64,000 bases of DNA from Octopus vulgaris (taxonomy: Eukaryota): positions 36,084,001-36,148,000 of the forward strand of contig OX597831.1 of the NCBI GenBank assembly GCA_951406725.2, written 5' to 3'. Every line of letters starts with the position of its first letter. Within the stretch, counting starts at the first letter, position 1. Below, one piece after another: positions 44,048 to 49,111 of the stretch. The position numbers are program-made.

Positions 44048-47000
44048 ATATAATATTATTAGAGACAAAACCACTATTTTGCAAAACAAACAAGGAAAGA
44101 CTTAATCAATACATAAAATTTTAATAAAAAGTCAAAAAAACCGCCACTACAATTGTTTCTTGTCTTGATCGACAATCTTCAGGTGGACTTCCAATCTAAA
44201 ATATCAATATTTTAAAATATAAAAATAATAATTTTAAAATAATTAAAGTATTAATGAAAAAATATAAATATATAATCTATTTATAACCTATATATAATCC
44301 ATATATAATCAATATATAAACAATATATAAACTAAAATAAACCTATCAACAATTAGATATAAAATATAAAATATAAAATATAAAATATAAAACAAAACAA
44401 AAAATAAACTATATATACACCCATACACATATAACTAATTATATATAACCATATCTAAATACATACACTAAATCACACACCTATATATATATCCCTATAC
44501 ATACACATAAAAACGTCTAGGCAACGATAAATAAATAAAATAGCTAAATACTTCAACACAATACTTATTCATACTCCCTCACACACACATACAACCCACA
44601 TTCCCGCTCTAGAAACGGACATCACTTAAAATTATGAACGGAGAAATGGAATAAATGGAATTAAAAATTATATTCACTTGGTAAAACGAACACTACTTAA
44701 AAATTATGAATGAAACAATGCAATAAAACAACAGACATCGCAAATAGACACAAATTACTACGAATTCCTTAACAAAACTACCATGATAAACCAAAACTCA
44801 TAAAAACATATAATGATAAAATCTCCCTTTACTAAACTCTATAACATACCTATATAGCAATCCCCCTAACCTAAACATTCACACACAAATACACACACGT
44901 AAACCACACACCCACGACATATACAAATACCCACCCCACTTACACATACCTATACATACATATAAACCTCAACATATACTCCAAAAACCCACTCAACCCC
45001 ACACAGACAAATAAACACATACATCCCCAAACCTAAATAGCAAACCCATAAACACATTCACACACAAATATACATACGTAAAACACACACCATATACATA
45101 TACATACTCACCAAACTCAATATATACAACAATATTAACACACCCACATTCATACAGATAAAGAAACTACACAACCAAAATACGCACACACTCACACACA
45201 ATCCCACATACATAAACACTCCAAAGAAAAACAACATTATTACACATAATACGATATATAAAATACATTGTAAGTAACCAGAATATCAAAAATAACAATA
45301 TGACATAAGGAGAAATAATATACATACTTTCAAGACAGTTTCAAATTATGAAGTGAAATTAAATTCTAATCCGTTAAAAACATCAAACCAAATTACGTTA
45401 CCATAGGAACATAACTTATGTATAAAAAGAATACGCGCTATGGAAGCAAACCTCACTTAAAATTATGAATGGAGAAATAGAATTAATGGAATTAAAAATT
45501 ATATACACGCGGTAAACCAACATTATTTAAAAAAATTATGAATGGATTCTTTTATAAAACTACCATGATAAACTAAAACTCACAAAAACATAAATGATAA
45601 AACCTCCCTTTACTAAACCCTATAACATACTTATATAGCAATCCCTTTAACCTATACATTCACACACAAATACACACACGTAAACCACACACCCATAACA
45701 AATACAAACACCCACCCCACTCACACACACCCACAAGTACATATAAGCCTCAACATATACACCAAACAAAATTACGTTACCAAGGAACTTAACATATGTA
45801 TAAAAAGTATTCCCGCTCTGGAAACGAACATCTTTTAAAATTATGAATGGAGAAATGGAATAAATGGAATTAAAAATAATATTCACGTGGCAAAACGAAC
45901 ACCACTCAAAAATTATGAATGAAACAATGTAATAAAACAACAAACATCGTAAATAGACAAATTACCACGAATTCCCTAAAAAAACCATGATAAACCAAAC
46001 TCATAAAAACATATAACGATAAAATCTCCCTTTGCTAAACTCTATAACAAACCTATATAGCAATCCCCCTAACCTAAACATTCACACACAAATACACACA
46101 CGTAAACCACACACCCACGACTTATACAAATACCCACCTCACTCACACATACCTATACTAACTTATAAACCTCAATATACACCAAAAACCCACTCCCTCC
46201 CCACACAGACAAATTAACACATACATCCCCAAACCTAAATAACAAACCCATATACACATTCACACACAAACACACACACACGCAAAACACACACACACAA
46301 CAGATACATATACTCCCTCACATATACGCATATACATACTCACTAAACTCGATATATACAACAATATTTACACACCCACACTCATACAGATAAATAAATT
46401 ATACAACTAAAAAACGCACACACTCACACACAATCTCACATACATAAACACTCCAATAAAAACAACATTAAATACATCGTAATTAACCAGAATATCAAAA
46501 ATAACAATATGACATAAGGAGAAATAAAATACATACTTACAAGTCAGTTTCAAATTATGAAGTGAAATTAAATTCTAAGCCGTTAAAAAAATCAAACCAA
46601 AATAACGTTACCATAGAAACATAACTTATGTATAAAAAGAATACGCGCCATGGAAAGCAAACGTCATTTAAAATTATTAATGGAGAAATAGAATAAATAG
46701 AACTAAAAACTATATCCACGTGGCAAACCAACACTACTTAAAAAAAAAAAAAAAAAAAATTAATATGAATGGATTCTTTAATAAAACTACCATGATAAAT
46801 TATTATATGCATTTATGAGCTTTAGCTCATCTTGGCAGCTCTAACAAACAATTTGCAGTAGCCCACGTCTATTTTTGATGCCTGCCATTCCACTACACTA
46901 TTCCATTCCCAATTCTAAGCAACGCTAGCCCACCACCCGGTTACAATTCCCAACTCCACCCATTCATTCACAATTTCAACGACGTTCGCCTCCACATCGC

Positions 47001-49111
47001 TACGTATGAGCCTCAATATATACACCGGTGATTCGCTTCCACATCCGTGCGGATGGGTGAGAGTATGCATTGAGTGTAGTGATGGGGCTCCCTTTGCTAT
47101 GCACATTTGTACCTGTGTGGTAGTCTCCATGTGTATATTCACGCACGGGTATAAATGCGGGGGGTATACGCGCACGGCATGTGCGTGTACCCCCTCACAT
47201 GTACATGTGCATACTTGTTGGGCTCGATATGTGCAACGGTGTGTACACGCCCGCATACATGCAGATGAGCGAACTGCACAATCAAAATACGCACACATGT
47301 GTGTGTGCGTTTTTAGGTTGTGCAGCTCACCCATCTGGGTGTGAGTGGGTGTGAGCGTATTGCTGTGGATGTCAAGCTTGATACGTATGTATATGAGTGT
47401 GTTTTGGGGGGTTGTACGTATGTGTTGTGTGCATGTGCTTCGCGCACGTGCGTCCGTGTATGGATGAATATATGGGGATTGCTATGTGGGTGTAAATTGG
47501 GTATGGAGGGGGAGTTTTGTCATTGTATGGGTGTGGGTTTCATTTGTGATGGTGGTTTGTTGGTGATTTGTGGTATGTTCTGTATATTTGGGTTAGTTAT
47601 GTATTGTTCTTGTGTGTATAATTGTATACATGTATGATTGGTGTGAGTGGGATTGGGCCATTTTTGGGGATGTATGTGTTTATTTGTCCGTGTGGGGCGG
47701 GAGTGGCCGTTTGGTGTATATGTTGAGGCTCACATGCAATTCCAGGTACGCGCGAATGAAGTGGGCACTTATATTTGTTATGGGTGTGTGTACTTTATTA
47801 TAACAGACAATACCCAAATAAAATCTGTCAATTCAACATACCAAATAAAAAACAAAGGGATCGTAAGCATTCACACATACATACAAAACTCAATATATAC
47901 ACCACTAAATAACACCCATCATCATATAAATATATCCTCCAATATACATATAACAAATGCATAATAAAAATACATAATAAAATAAAAATAAAACAATATA
48001 TAATTAAAGAAAATTAAAAAAATCTAATATAAATTATTAAAGTTTTAACATACCATAAACTGTTATATTAATATACATTAAAAATGAACTAATTAAAACA
48101 AAGAAATATCAATAAAGACTAACTATAATTAAAGCCTAGACTACATAACCAAATAAATATAATTAACTAAACTAATTTAAACTAAACTAAAGTAACCTAA
48201 TAGGGAACTATTAATGCTATTTATCATGAAACTTATTATATAGGTAAAGTAACTTATGTCTGCATTTTATTTTGCGCTCTTCACCAGTATTAAGTAAATT
48301 ATCATACTTATAAAATAAAATTTCTTTAAACTCATTAGAGCATAAATAACAACAATTAGCTCCTATAGTATATGATTTAGTTTTACAAATTATTTCCCAA
48401 ATTAAACTATAATTAATATTTAGTGATTTAAGTCTCCAAATGTACTTACTAAGTCCGGTTGAGTTGATTAAGTTTTTATTTTTAAAAGAATTCATATGTT
48501 GTGCGATTCTTAATTTTATTTTTGAGGAAGTAGAACCTATATAAACTGCTTTTGGGTAATTATTATTCTTAAAGTTATTATCATGTAATGTAACTATACA
48601 TTTATACACTACATCGTTAATATCACAATTATTATTTAATATAAAATTATATTTATCTCTACATGTACAATTAATATAAGTCTTATCATTATTAATATTA
48701 TTATCAAATAATTTCTTTTTATAAAAATTATTCAGTTTATATTTATTAAATGAAGAAATAATGTTACCAACATTATTAGTGGTAGAATAACCTACTCCAA
48801 AATTATTAAAAGAGAAAATGTTTCTATATTTACGATTATCTCTAATAAATAGTTCTATAACATCTAAAATCTCTTTAATAATATTCGTTTTTACTTGATC
48901 TCCATAAGGAACTATTAACCAAATTTTATTCTTATTAACCTTATTATTATTATCATTATTATAAATATATTTATAATTCTTTATTTTATTAAAATTATTA
49001 TCAGAATTATATCTATGTACAGCATTTAAGGAATTATTAATATTATTAATTTTATCAATATAATTATTATAATAATTATTAAATTTATTTTTATTTTTAT
49101 TATTCTTATTT

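What the first reader, a model, noticed from the sequence alone, without database searches (positions are those of the whole stretch)
44700..47760. Hidden kb-scale fold-back in the PLE 3' region with mostly G.U-wobble mismatches on the sense RNA: possible fixed A-to-I hyper-editing
Seen: 46802-46908 looks unique but aligns without gaps to the reverse complement of 44708-44814. By hand count, 107 columns hold 36 mismatches: 21 T>C, 7 G>A, 3 opposite transitions and 5 transversions. On the minus strand (element sense), all 28 T>C and G>A differences become U.G or G.U pairs, so pairing rises from 71 to about 99 of 107; on the plus strand they are A.C mismatches. T>C changes are also frequent at ~47298-47395 against 45090-45195 (not counted). 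Established: ADAR converts A to I in long dsRNA, reverse transcription copies I as G, and coleoid cephalopods edit RNA heavily. Inference: the element RNA forms a long duplex whose A-U pairs were edited on both arms and written back into DNA over retrotransposition cycles. Alternatively, selection keeps a strand-specific wobble-rich structure, for example one evading dsRNA sensing. Neutral DNA decay should not give a 28:3 asymmetry.
Basis: partly seen in the sequence, partly recalled or inferred. Interest (0 to 1): 0.88.

Follow-up and report, generated by a model that had tools for sequence, protein, structure and literature searches.

The report
Strand-specific wobble fold-backs beside retroelement
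Next to a broken Penelope-like retroelement lie two adjacent DNA fold-backs whose arms differ almost only by base changes that keep G·U pairing on one RNA strand, which looks most like RNA editing copied back into DNA, although the direction of the changes is not proven.

Summary
31 other inverted-repeat pairs in the window are balanced, 299:282.

The best partner of 46799-47007 is the adjacent array copy, forming hairpin 1 (37:0 for the minus strand). A second, stronger fold-back, 47053-47298 | 47301-47547, has the opposite polarity (76:9 for the plus strand). One sense RNA cannot explain both.

Polarity is only partly resolvable without other genomic copies. Properly polarised changes within the tandem array are plus-strand T>C 20 against A>G 3. 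About half of the As are changed. The 5' neighbour order is U>A>C>G. The implied ancestral GC is 35% rather than 67%. All of this favours A-to-G (ADAR-type editing copied back by reverse transcription) over C-to-U. A C-to-T component on the same strand also exists.

Verdict: a real and unusual feature. The editing interpretation is partly supported (confidence about 0.4).

The parts
43909..44056 (.). (AT)n microsatellite at the left edge of the composite insertion
   Evidence: Tandem Repeats Finder: period 2, 75 copies. A matching (AT)n lies at the right edge.
44057..46798 (+). 'A-array': about 2.3 tandem copies of a ~1.2-kb unit (44582-45790, 45791-46798), with sub-blocks X (44590-44830, 45795-46040), X' (45431-45590, 46642-46798) and AC-rich parts. 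The plus strand is G-poor.
   Evidence: Direct repeat families D5-D13 with spacings 1209-1232 and 831/378. Composition A 1325, C 617, G 176, T 623. G is 3-24 per 200 nt.
44034..45080 (+). Left arm of a near-perfect 1-kb inverted repeat that flanks the whole unit
   Evidence: Pairs with 49978-51021: 605 nt at 100%, 323 nt at 97%, 153 nt at 95%.
46641..46772 (-). Hairpin 1, array-side arm (copy X'2)
   Evidence: Pairs with 46885-47007: 121 columns, 74 WC, 37 G.U on the minus strand, 0 on the plus strand, 10 transversions. The minus-strand fold has z -9.1.
46799..47007 (-).
   Evidence: Site pattern A,A,A,A,G occurs 26 times, plus 12 more at sites where one or two copies have a gap. The branch has A>G 31 against G>A 2 and T>C 1.
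46973..47298 (+). Bd: direct copy of the AC-rich part of the unit, G-rich. It forms the left arm of hairpin 2 from 47053.
   Evidence: 47098-47298 against 46220-46423: 200 columns, 122 identical, A>G 45, C>T 17, T>C 6, 10 transversions.
47301..47547 (+). Bi: inverted copy, right arm of hairpin 2. The palindrome centre is at about 47297/47298 with no spacer.
   Evidence: 47053-47298 | 47301-47547: 243 columns, 143 WC, 76 G.U on the plus strand (41 with G in the left arm, 35 in the right), 9 on the minus strand, 15 transversions. The plus-strand fold is -245.2, z -16.
47663..47790 (-). Further inverted copy of the AC1 part
   Evidence: Against 44905-45031: 127 columns, 99 WC, 18 G.U(-), 2 G.U(+), 8 transversions.
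47800..48216 (-). Stretch just downstream of the ORF stop; the plus strand is G-poor
   Evidence: A 225, C 64, G 21, T 107.
48217..50017 (-). 5'-truncated, once-frameshifted Penelope-like ORF (RT with YRDD motif plus a C-terminal GIY-YIG-type domain), 20% GC, with a poly-Asn run
   Evidence: Translations. Homologues of ~700 aa align from about residue 250 to the end, in frames -1 and -2 with the switch near 49452. 3055 relatives at E<=1e-3. 5 of 22 aligned relatives match Pfam GIY-YIG.
49978..51021 (-). Right arm: inverted copy of 44034-45080, abutting the truncated ORF
51079..51142 (.). (AT)n microsatellite at the right edge
   Evidence: Tandem Repeats Finder: period 2, 32.5 copies.

Best explanation
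The block 46.8-47.55 kb is read as the DNA record of long fold-back RNAs from a repeat associated with a Penelope-like element (PLE).

Proposed mechanism (inferred). PLE-type insertions create head-to-head copies. Their transcripts form perfect hairpins hundreds of base pairs long. An ADAR-type deaminase converts about half of the adenosines to inosine. A reverse transcriptase reads inosine as G. The copy is then fixed in the germline. Each A-U pair becomes G.U on the strand that was the RNA and A.C on the other strand.

At least two blocks of opposite RNA sense are needed. Block 46799-47007, together with low-level changes in the array, has minus sense. Hairpin 2 (47053-47547) has plus sense. 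A single plus-sense RNA with a 5' inversion of the twin-priming kind would also give the observed order: rc(X 44824->44600), then direct 44933->45195, then its inverted repeat.

What is shown: the strand-specific transition pattern, its rarity in this window, the partial polarisation, the sequence context, and the level of change.

What is inferred: the enzyme, the RNA intermediate and the write-back step.

The G-poor composition of the array is taken as native to the element and is not explained by this model.
For: 1. Asymmetry is far beyond the window's norm: 37:0, 54:6, 18:2 and 76:9, against 299:282 in 31 control pairs.

2. Changes that can be rooted are of A>G type. Within the array, plus-strand T>C is 20 (22 listed, 2 counted twice) against A>G 3, over invariant sites T 61 and A 153. 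That is roughly a 13-fold per-site strand asymmetry. Of the 9 array-C/B-T sites, 5-6 of the 6 with an outgroup read as T>C in X1/X2.

3. In hairpin 2, none of the 30 sites with Bd=G and Bi=A has G in any array copy. Among the 18 sites where both arms have G, 5 do. This is as expected if Bd gained the Gs.

4. The level of change is near one half. 90 of 189 As are changed in B1+Bd, and 76 of 149 in hairpin 2, spread over both arms (41 and 35). About half of the As is the level recalled for ADAR acting on long perfect duplexes.

5. The 5' neighbour of changed As in B1+Bd is U 31/44, A 35/70, C 21/59, G 3/16 (chi-square p=4e-4). The pair-based pooled figures are U .52, A .47, C .28, G .32 (p=0.015), with 3' C/G above U/A. 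This matches the metazoan ADAR preference: 5' U/A favoured, G disfavoured; 3' G favoured, U disfavoured (PMC9989829, passages read).

6. Read as C>U, the same sites show no context preference (p=0.26 and 0.46).

7. Implied ancestral GC of the hairpin 2 pairs is 77/218 = 35% under A>G and 145/218 = 67% under C>U. For hairpin 1 it is 24% against 53%. The window is 34.6% GC and the adjacent ORF about 20%.

8. The changes sit in duplex-forming arms. A reverse-transcriptase gene family lies next door. The tandem/inverted layout is typical of PLE insertions (PMC8557442, passages read).
Against: 1. The largest class (array A against B G; 77 changes on the B branches) cannot be rooted. Transversion distances are star-like, and no other copy exists in the window or in the protein sets.

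2. The two hairpins have opposite polarity. At least two events, or an inversion, must therefore be assumed.

3. In hairpin 1 only one arm is changed (31 against 6). ADAR would be expected to edit both arms.

4. A C>T component exists on the same strand. Within the array, G>A is about 9 (12 listed, 3 doubtful in a poly-A stretch) from about 20 G sites, against C>T 13 from about 117 C sites. In Bd, C>T is 7.

5. The 5'-neighbour order U>A>C is also what ordinary dinucleotide bias predicts if the Gs are ancestral. Background P(G|purine) is T .39, A .35, C .27, G .37. Only the 5'-G class discriminates, and it is small.

6. Mismatch purity is 58-64% A>G, below the >90% used to call ultra-edited RNAs (PMC3197674).

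7. G/U-rich strands fold well in any case. 44034-45300 gives -237.8 on the minus strand and -69.0 on the plus strand without any long hairpin.

8. The local ORF is truncated and frameshifted. No RNA data are available, and the organism is unverified.
Confidence: 0.4

Rival explanations
1. C-to-U (C>T) hypermutation of a GC-rich ancestor. The inner arms (46799-47298) keep the ancestral sequence. The array, Bi and the other copies lost C on the strand complementary to the unit strand, through a cytidine deaminase or spontaneous deamination acting on single-stranded RNA or DNA. G-C pairs then became G.U.
For: One process would explain both the differences and the array's extreme G-poverty (G 176 of 2741). 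Within the array the per-site G>A rate is the highest of all classes and A>G the lowest, so G loss is ongoing there. The few Gs kept in the AC-rich parts lie after C more often than expected (7 of 12 and 4 of 11, against 3.9 and 3.5 expected).
Against: Correlated loss would be required: 0 of 30 against 5 of 18 array sites retain G, Fisher p about 0.005. The implied ancestors are 67% and 53% GC in a 35% GC window. There is no sequence context, and 5' U is if anything disfavoured, unlike APOBEC motifs. The change would be C>T on the element's sense strand, not the G>A signature of cDNA deamination. Deaminases specific for single strands should spare long duplexes. G>A editing of retroelements was reported absent from 19 invertebrate genomes (PMC4866542, passages read). 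The adjacent ORF is open for 422+192 codons, so it was not hit.
Confidence: 0.25
2. In-situ DNA-level asymmetry. One DNA strand of each segment is repeatedly exposed as a single strand (the non-template strand in transcription or R-loops, or during replication). It accumulates both C>T and A>G by deamination, as in strand-skewed genomes. No reverse transcription is needed.
For: Both wobble-compatible classes are raised on the same strand in the array. In minus-strand terms A>G is 20 and C>T about 9, against T>C 3 and G>A 13, with strong per-site ratios. Hairpin 2 has a spacer-less centre, so its arms probably began identical and diverged in place. The skew (G+T-rich on one strand) also covers stretches without an old inverted partner, such as 44201-44400 with G 3 and C 15 of 200.
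Against: Ratios of 8:1 up to 37:0 are far above the transcription-associated asymmetries I recall for nuclear genomes (about 1.3-1.6; not checked in a call). The exposed strand would have to switch at about 47030 and back at about 47600. In hairpin 1 only one arm changed.
Confidence: 0.15
3. Selection keeps strand-specific, wobble-rich RNA hairpins, for example small-RNA precursors or structures that escape dsRNA sensing. Only A>G and C>U changes on the transcribed strand are tolerated.
For: Both tolerated classes are enriched and transversions are scarce (15 of 243 columns in hairpin 2). 11 sites have G-C in hairpin 2 where the array has A. These could be compensatory changes.
Against: Functional RNAs on opposite strands would be needed side by side, within a degraded repeat. 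No Rfam family reaches its threshold; only weak miRNA-like hairpin hits appear. Per-site selection across kilobases of redundant copies is implausible. The 11 sites can equally predate the palindrome.
Confidence: 0.08
4. Artefact or ordinary decay: an assembly error in a palindromic, low-complexity region, or chance alignment of purine/pyrimidine-alternating microsatellite-like sequence.
For: The AC-rich parts resemble (CA)n/(TA)n, and such sequences align with transitions only (seen). PLE structures are reported to trouble assemblies (PMC8557442). The outer 605-nt arms are 100% identical.
Against: Block X/B1 is complex sequence, not a microsatellite, and gives 29:4 in an ungapped alignment with plain scoring. 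Non-alternating landmarks align in hairpin 2. Controls are balanced. Consensus errors do not produce 30% one-directional transitions.
Confidence: 0.05

Closest known systems
ADAR hyper-/ultra-edited dsRNA clusters (Carmi et al. 2011, PMC3197674; Porath et al. 2014, PMC4365171)
   Same: Dense one-directional A/G differences at a large share of the As in long fold-backs formed by inverted repeat copies. G is depleted 5' of the changed sites.
   Different: Those are RNA-versus-DNA mismatches. Here the differences lie between paralogous DNA arms, so a write-back step must be assumed. Purity is 58-64%, not >90%. The direction is unproven. PMC3197674: passages read. PMC4365171: listing and abstract only.
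Deaminase footprints fixed in retroelement DNA: APOBEC G>A in vertebrate LTR elements (PMC4866542). A-to-G 'RNA editing of retrotransposons' in mammals (Knisbacher & Levanon 2015): I saw only its reference entry in PMC5850729, and its content is recalled.
   Same: Clustered, strand-biased transitions between copies of a retroelement, read as host editing that became heritable through retrotransposition.
   Different: The host here is an invertebrate-like genome. The element is a PLE-associated non-coding repeat. The change type is A>G (or C>T on the sense strand), not G>A. It is concentrated in hairpin arms, and two neighbouring blocks have opposite polarity.
Complex tandem/inverted insertions of Penelope-like elements (Craig et al. 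2021, PMC8557442)
   Same: 5' truncation, partial tandems, an inverted copy giving inverted repeats that flank the unit, microsatellite target ((AT)n on both sides), and RT plus C-terminal GIY-YIG.
   Different: No hammerhead ribozyme was found. The non-coding part is about 4 kb, although the relatives' contigs are 2-3 kb. Transition-only divergence between arms was not mentioned in the passages I read.
Strand-asymmetric deamination skews (vertebrate mitochondrial DNA; transcription-associated asymmetry) - recalled, not checked in a call
   Same: C>T and A>G are raised on the same strand, giving one G+T-rich strand and one A+C-rich, G-poor strand.
   Different: This is a nuclear repeat. The skew follows the orientation of each repeat copy and flips over a few hundred bases.
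Repeat-induced point mutation (fungi) - recalled
   Same: Duplicated DNA riddled with transitions, in long one-strand tracts.
   Different: The genome is animal-like. No CpA-type context appears. One arm of each pair is largely spared.

Membership tests
DNA-fixed ADAR hyper-editing (retro-copied edited RNA) | Dense clusters of one mismatch type on one strand (ultra-editing criteria: at least 12 A>G, at least 20% of As, more than 90% of mismatches) | tested here: inconclusive
   A>G counts are 45 and 45, and 48% of As are changed. A>G is only 45 of 70 and 45 of 78 mismatches. The criteria are from PMC3197674.
DNA-fixed ADAR hyper-editing (retro-copied edited RNA) | Direction A>G shown against an ancestral or consensus sequence | tested here: inconclusive
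   Rooted subsets favour A>G: T>C 20 against A>G 3 on the plus strand of the array; 0 of 30 against 5 of 18. The main class cannot be rooted. No external copies were found.
DNA-fixed ADAR hyper-editing (retro-copied edited RNA) | Changed sites lie in a long duplex formed with an inverted partner | tested here: met
   Hairpin 1 has 147 pairs, z -9.1. Hairpin 2 has 218 pairs, z -16.
DNA-fixed ADAR hyper-editing (retro-copied edited RNA) | ADAR neighbour preference (5' U/A favoured, G disfavoured; 3' G favoured) | tested here: met
   5': U 31/44, A 35/70, C 21/59, G 3/16, p=4e-4. Pooled pair-based p=0.015. Partly confounded by ordinary dinucleotide bias. 3' G could hardly be tested (1/5; 15/29).
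DNA-fixed ADAR hyper-editing (retro-copied edited RNA) | Transcription of the locus and A-to-G hyper-edited reads; host ADAR | not testable with these tools
   No RNA data and no host genome are at hand. The organism was not identified.
APOBEC-type DNA editing of retroelements | G>A on the element's sense strand with a dinucleotide motif | tested here: not met
   Read as cytidine deamination, the change is C>T on the sense (minus) strand of the array. No context appears: 5' p=0.26, 3' p=0.46.
Penelope-like element, C-terminal EN+ | PLE-type reverse transcriptase | tested here: inconclusive
   A YRDD motif is present, with 35-48% identity to ~700-aa proteins over residues ~250-440. No Pfam or PDB match for the window's protein or for 5 relatives. 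The PLE label rests on the architecture and on a named Hydra vulgaris relative.
Penelope-like element, C-terminal EN+ | C-terminal GIY-YIG endonuclease | tested here: met
   Invariant Y..YIG..R..H-type columns in 22 aligned sequences. 5 of 22 relatives match PF01541, best E 2e-4; the window's own copy does not.
Penelope-like element, C-terminal EN+ | 5' truncation, tandem/inverted pseudo-LTR structure, microsatellite target | tested here: met
   The ORF starts at about residue 250. 1-kb inverted arms. A tandem 1.2-kb unit. (AT)n on both flanks. Features as described in PMC8557442.
Penelope-like element, C-terminal EN+ | Hammerhead ribozyme in the pseudo-LTR | tested here: not met
   No Rfam family at gathering score in the window, and no hammerhead at E<=1 in 43000-52000.
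Hairpin small-RNA precursor (miRNA/hpRNA) | Match to a curated family, or small RNAs from the stem | tested here: not met
   Only sub-threshold miRNA-like hits at 47250-47349 (34 bits or less, against gathering scores of 76-140). Small-RNA data are not available.

The most novel reading that the evidence does not exclude
In this genome a Penelope-like reverse transcriptase repeatedly writes A-to-I hyper-edited fold-back RNAs back into germline DNA, in either orientation. RNA editing would then act as a heritable, strand-specific mutator that turns an AT-rich repeat GC-richer and converts perfect palindromes into one-strand-only wobble hairpins.
Probability: 0.35. Interest if true: 0.85.

Novelty: new variant of a known kind. 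Interest (0 to 1): 0.62.

Why it matters
If the A-to-G reading holds, this locus records RNA editing becoming heritable DNA change through a retroelement. I recall this being discussed for mammals. My searches (listings and abstracts only) found no report of it for Penelope-like elements or invertebrates.

It would make a long-standing question testable: does heavy ADAR activity leave a mutational imprint on genomes? The test is genome-wide polarisation of this repeat family against RNA-seq.

If the C-to-U reading holds instead, it would point to a cytidine-deaminase-like hypermutation of repeats in an invertebrate, which would also be unexpected.

Either way, there is a practical point. Repeat finders working in the four-letter alphabet miss these fold-backs, whereas a purine/pyrimidine alphabet reveals them.

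Tried and rejected
External copies for polarisation.
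- Translated ORFs from the B block (46918-47481, minus) and from the array (45650-45961, minus) found no relatives.
- A purine/pyrimidine scan found no further copy of blocks X, T or B1 in the window.
- The unit is not a hypermutated piece of the missing N-terminal PLE coding region: tblastn with 16 relatives hits only 48229-50074.

Rooting by transversion distances failed. Block X: 3-7 among array copies, 6-9 to B1. Block AC2: Bd is nearer to copy 2 (4) than copy 1 is (6), and Bi is farthest (11-17). The tree is star-like with conflicting sites.

A bisulfite-like 'only CpG Gs survive' idea was dropped. Across the whole array the 5' neighbours of G are A 56, C 43, G 27, T 50.

Comparing raw folding energies of the two strands is unsafe, because the G/U-rich strand folds well without any hairpin. 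I therefore rely on z-scores against shuffles and on pair counts.

The first window-wide purine/pyrimidine scan was swamped by microsatellites and was replaced by a filtered scan.

Pfam and PDB searches for the ORF pieces, for 5 relatives and for a 22-sequence profile gave nothing beyond weak GIY-YIG hits in 5 relatives.

The paper on Octopus vulgaris repeats says nothing on editing or hairpins.

The Knisbacher & Levanon 2015 paper is not held.

Not used: the genome-contig collection (bacteria and archaea only) and the phage, plasmid and E. coli collections, as irrelevant to an animal repeat.

Full report
**Observation**

44708-44814 aligns without gaps to the reverse complement of 46802-46908: 107 columns, 71 matches, 21+7 mismatches that are G.U on the minus strand, 3 that are G.U on the plus strand, and 5 transversions. 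The RNA duplex energy is -113.8 kcal/mol for the minus strand and -43.7 for the plus strand.

The homology runs on to 44610-44817 | 46799-46994: 196 columns, 54:6. It survives plain +1/-1 scoring: 116 ungapped columns, 29:4.

As a control I scanned the whole window for inverted repeats in a purine/pyrimidine alphabet. I dropped microsatellite-like alternating stretches and kept the longest non-overlapping pairs. Of 40 pairs listed, the 31 outside the locus sum to 299 G.U(+) against 282 G.U(-), and the worst single pair has p=0.036. The locus pairs give 6:31 and 3:17. Neutral decay of repeats in this window does not produce such asymmetry.

**Anatomy**

The window is repeat- and microsatellite-rich and 34.6% GC. 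I could not identify the organism.

On the minus strand, 48217-50017 holds two overlapping reading frames (422 and 192 codons) with a YRDD motif and a C-terminal Y..YIG..R..H domain.
- They match ~700-residue proteins from about residue 250 to the end, with one frame switch near 49452.
- The family has 3055 members at E<=1e-3.
- 5 of 22 aligned relatives match Pfam GIY-YIG, although the window's copy matches no Pfam or PDB entry.

This fits a 5'-truncated, degraded Penelope-like element (PLE) with a C-terminal endonuclease.

The whole composite (44057-51078) is bounded by (AT)n on both sides. It is flanked by a near-perfect 1-kb inverted repeat, 44034-45080 against 49978-51021, with 605 nt at 100%. 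Craig et al. describe 5' truncation, partial tandems, an inverted copy giving flanking inverted repeats, and microsatellite targets as typical of PLE insertions (PMC8557442, passages read). No hammerhead ribozyme was found.

Downstream of the ORF lie four segments:
- 47800-48216.
- The 'B' block, 46799-47800.
- The 'A-array', 44057-46798. This is about 2.3 tandem copies of a 1.2-kb unit. Its plus strand is strikingly G-poor: A 1325, C 617, G 176, T 623.
- B itself is a mosaic: an inverted copy of block X (46799-47007, 'B1'), a direct copy of the AC-rich part (about 46973-47298, 'Bd'), and inverted copies (47301-47547, 'Bi'; and 47663-47790).

**Two hairpins of opposite polarity**

The nearest partner of B1 is the adjacent last array copy, not the copy 2 kb away.
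- Hairpin 1: 46641-46772 | 46885-47007 has 121 columns, 74 WC, 37 G.U on the minus strand, none on the plus strand, and 10 transversions.
- As RNA, 46640-47010 folds to -131.1 kcal/mol on the minus strand (z -9.1; 147 pairs, 42 G.U). On the plus strand it reaches -52.8 (z -1.3).

Immediately to the right is hairpin 2.
- Bd and Bi form a spacer-less palindrome centred at about 47297/8. 47053-47298 | 47301-47547 has 243 columns, 143 WC, 76 G.U on the plus strand (41 with the G in the left arm, 35 in the right), 9 on the minus strand, and 15 transversions. Plain scoring gives 53:9.
- Here the plus strand folds: -245.2, z -16, against -146.5, z -8.3.

A caution applies to energies: the G/U-rich strand of the array folds far better than its complement even without a long hairpin (-237.8 against -69.0 for 44034-45300). 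Energy differences between strands are partly compositional. The z-scores and pair counts are the safer evidence.

**What differs, in the unit's own orientation**

Wherever a B copy can be aligned to the array, the array has A where the B copy has G, whatever the B copy's orientation: 117 against 5 over six blocks (763 columns).

Four array copies of block X, which have themselves diverged, share A at 26 sites where B1 has G, plus 12 more sites where one or two copies have a gap.

The two G-rich segments, B1 and Bd, are neighbours (46799-47298), and each faces an A-rich arm on its outer side.

**Direction of change**

This is the crux, and it is only partly solvable here. No eukaryotic genome collection was available. 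The window has no further copy. Translated searches found none.

Transversion distances give a star-like tree, so the branch between the array and B1/Bd cannot be rooted.

Five lines nevertheless favour A>G.

1. Changes private to single array lineages, polarised by at least two other lineages, are plus-strand T>C 20, C>T 13, G>A about 9 and A>G 3. (22 T>C were listed and 2 counted twice. 12 G>A were listed and 3 lie in a poly-A stretch and are doubtful.) Invariant sites are T 61, A 153, C 104, G 11. A:T>G:C changes are therefore about 13 times more frequent per site when the A is on the minus strand.
2. Of the 9 array-C/B1-T sites, 6 have an X' copy as outgroup, and in 5-6 of them X' agrees with B1. 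These are T>C in the X1/X2 lineage, that is A>G on the minus strand.
3. In hairpin 2, none of the 30 sites with Bd=G and Bi=A has G in any array copy, whereas 5 of 18 sites with G in both arms do. If the Gs were ancestral, array and Bi would have had to lose the same ones.
4. Under A>G the ancestral hairpins would be 35% and 24% G-C pairs, like the window and the AT-rich element. Under C>U they would be 67% and 53%.
5. The level is near one half of the As: 90 of 189 in B1+Bd and 76 of 149 in hairpin 2, shared between both arms. This is the plateau I recall for ADAR acting on long perfect duplexes.

**Sequence context**

For B1+Bd the fraction of As changed by 5' neighbour is U 31/44, A 35/70, C 21/59, G 3/16 (p=4e-4). 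The other two blocks are sparser: Bi is U 3/16, A 5/14, C 4/22, G 0/3, and 47663-47790 is U 6/14, A 4/15, C 3/23, G 0/2. All six blocks pooled give T 42/86, A 39/107, C 32/120, G 4/23.

Counted on pairs of both hairpins, on their favoured strands, the fractions are 5' U .52, A .47, C .28, G .32 (p=0.015), and 3' C .58, G .52, U .41, A .38.

This is the preference reported for ADARs across metazoans (PMC9989829, passages read).

One caveat applies. If the Gs were ancestral, ordinary dinucleotide bias (TpG excess, CpG deficit) would also give U>A>C (background .39.35.27, and G .37). Only the 5'-G class discriminates, and it is small.

Read instead as C>U, the same pairs show no context at all (p=0.26 and 0.46). 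That does not resemble APOBEC-type enzymes.

**Most likely mechanism (confidence about 0.4)**

PLE-type insertion created head-to-head copies. Their transcripts formed long perfect hairpins. An ADAR-type enzyme deaminated about half of the As. A reverse transcriptase copied inosine as G. The product was fixed in DNA. This gives G.U on the strand that had been RNA and A.C on the other.

The opposite polarity of the two hairpins then means blocks of opposite RNA sense. One economical reading is a single plus-sense RNA (X, AC, inverted AC), edited throughout and inserted with a 5' inversion of the twin-priming kind. The order on the plus strand is rc(X 44824->44600), then direct 44933->45195, then its inverted repeat, with about 108 nt missing at the junction. 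This is inference only, and 47663-47790 (minus-strand polarity) does not fit it.

Not explained by editing:
- the native G-poverty of the unit;
- the near-absence of changes in the array arm of hairpin 1 (6 against 31);
- a real C>T component on the same strand (G>A about 9 from about 20 G sites in the array; C>T 7 in Bd).

**Rivals**

1. C>U hypermutation of a GC-rich ancestor (0.25). It would explain the G-poverty in one stroke and matches the high per-site G>A rate in the array. But it needs correlated losses and GC-rich ancestors, has no motif, and would be C>T on the sense strand rather than the G>A of cDNA deamination. G>A editing was reported absent from 19 invertebrate genomes (PMC4866542).
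2. In-situ exposure of one DNA strand, with both A and C deamination (0.15). It fits the dual signature and the spacer-less palindrome. But it needs very large asymmetries that flip twice within 600 bp.
3. Selection for wobble-paired RNAs (0.08).
4. Artefact or microsatellite alignment (0.05). Block X is complex sequence and the controls are balanced.

**Comparison with what is known**

The pattern works like ADAR ultra-editing clusters (PMC3197674) combined with the 'editing fixed by retrotransposition' idea established for APOBEC in vertebrates (PMC4866542). I recall the same idea being proposed for ADAR in mammals (Knisbacher & Levanon 2015). I saw only that paper's reference entry, and the paper is not held.

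It does not meet the strict purity criterion for ultra-editing, and its direction is unproven. I therefore do not file it as a member. I rate it a new variant of a known kind if the reading holds.

My literature searches (listings and abstracts, plus passages of the papers named) found no report of such footprints in PLEs or invertebrates. Supplementary files could not be read.

Noticed in passing
44034-45080 and 49978-51021: Near-perfect 1-kb inverted repeat (605 nt at 100%) flanking the truncated ORF, bounded outside by (AT)n at 43909-44056 and 51079-51142. It is typical of PLE insertions, but perfect arms of this size could also be an assembly fold-back.
   Followed up: partly
49033-49243 (minus-strand ORF): An (ATT)n-type run encodes about 40 consecutive Asn inside the reading frame, between the RT and endonuclease parts. 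The ORF is only about 20% GC yet stays open for 422+192 codons.
   Followed up: partly
44034-45300: The G/U-rich minus strand folds to -237.8 kcal/mol with 148 G.U pairs, against -69.0 for the plus strand, without any long hairpin. This is a reminder that strand comparisons of folding energy are confounded by GT/AC skew.
   Followed up: yes
41000-41430; 43587-43872; 33830-34116; 51844-51998: A 183-bp tandem, SINE-like repeat family occurs on both sides of the composite insertion and elsewhere, in both orientations. Its inverted pairs show balanced transition classes and served as controls.
   Followed up: partly
46737-46760: An A-run expanded to about 24 nt in the last array copy only, just before hairpin 1. 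Alignment there is unreliable, so three apparent G>A changes were set aside.
   Followed up: partly
46915-47481 (minus) and 46919-47344 (plus): Overlapping stop-free frames of 188 and 141 codons run across the GC-rich B block. They have no Pfam match and the 188-codon frame has no relatives. They probably arise from skewed composition.
   Followed up: yes
54813-55232 (plus): A 139-codon frame whose translation looks by eye like the N-terminal helix-turn-helix of a mariner-type transposase. Not tested.
   Followed up: no
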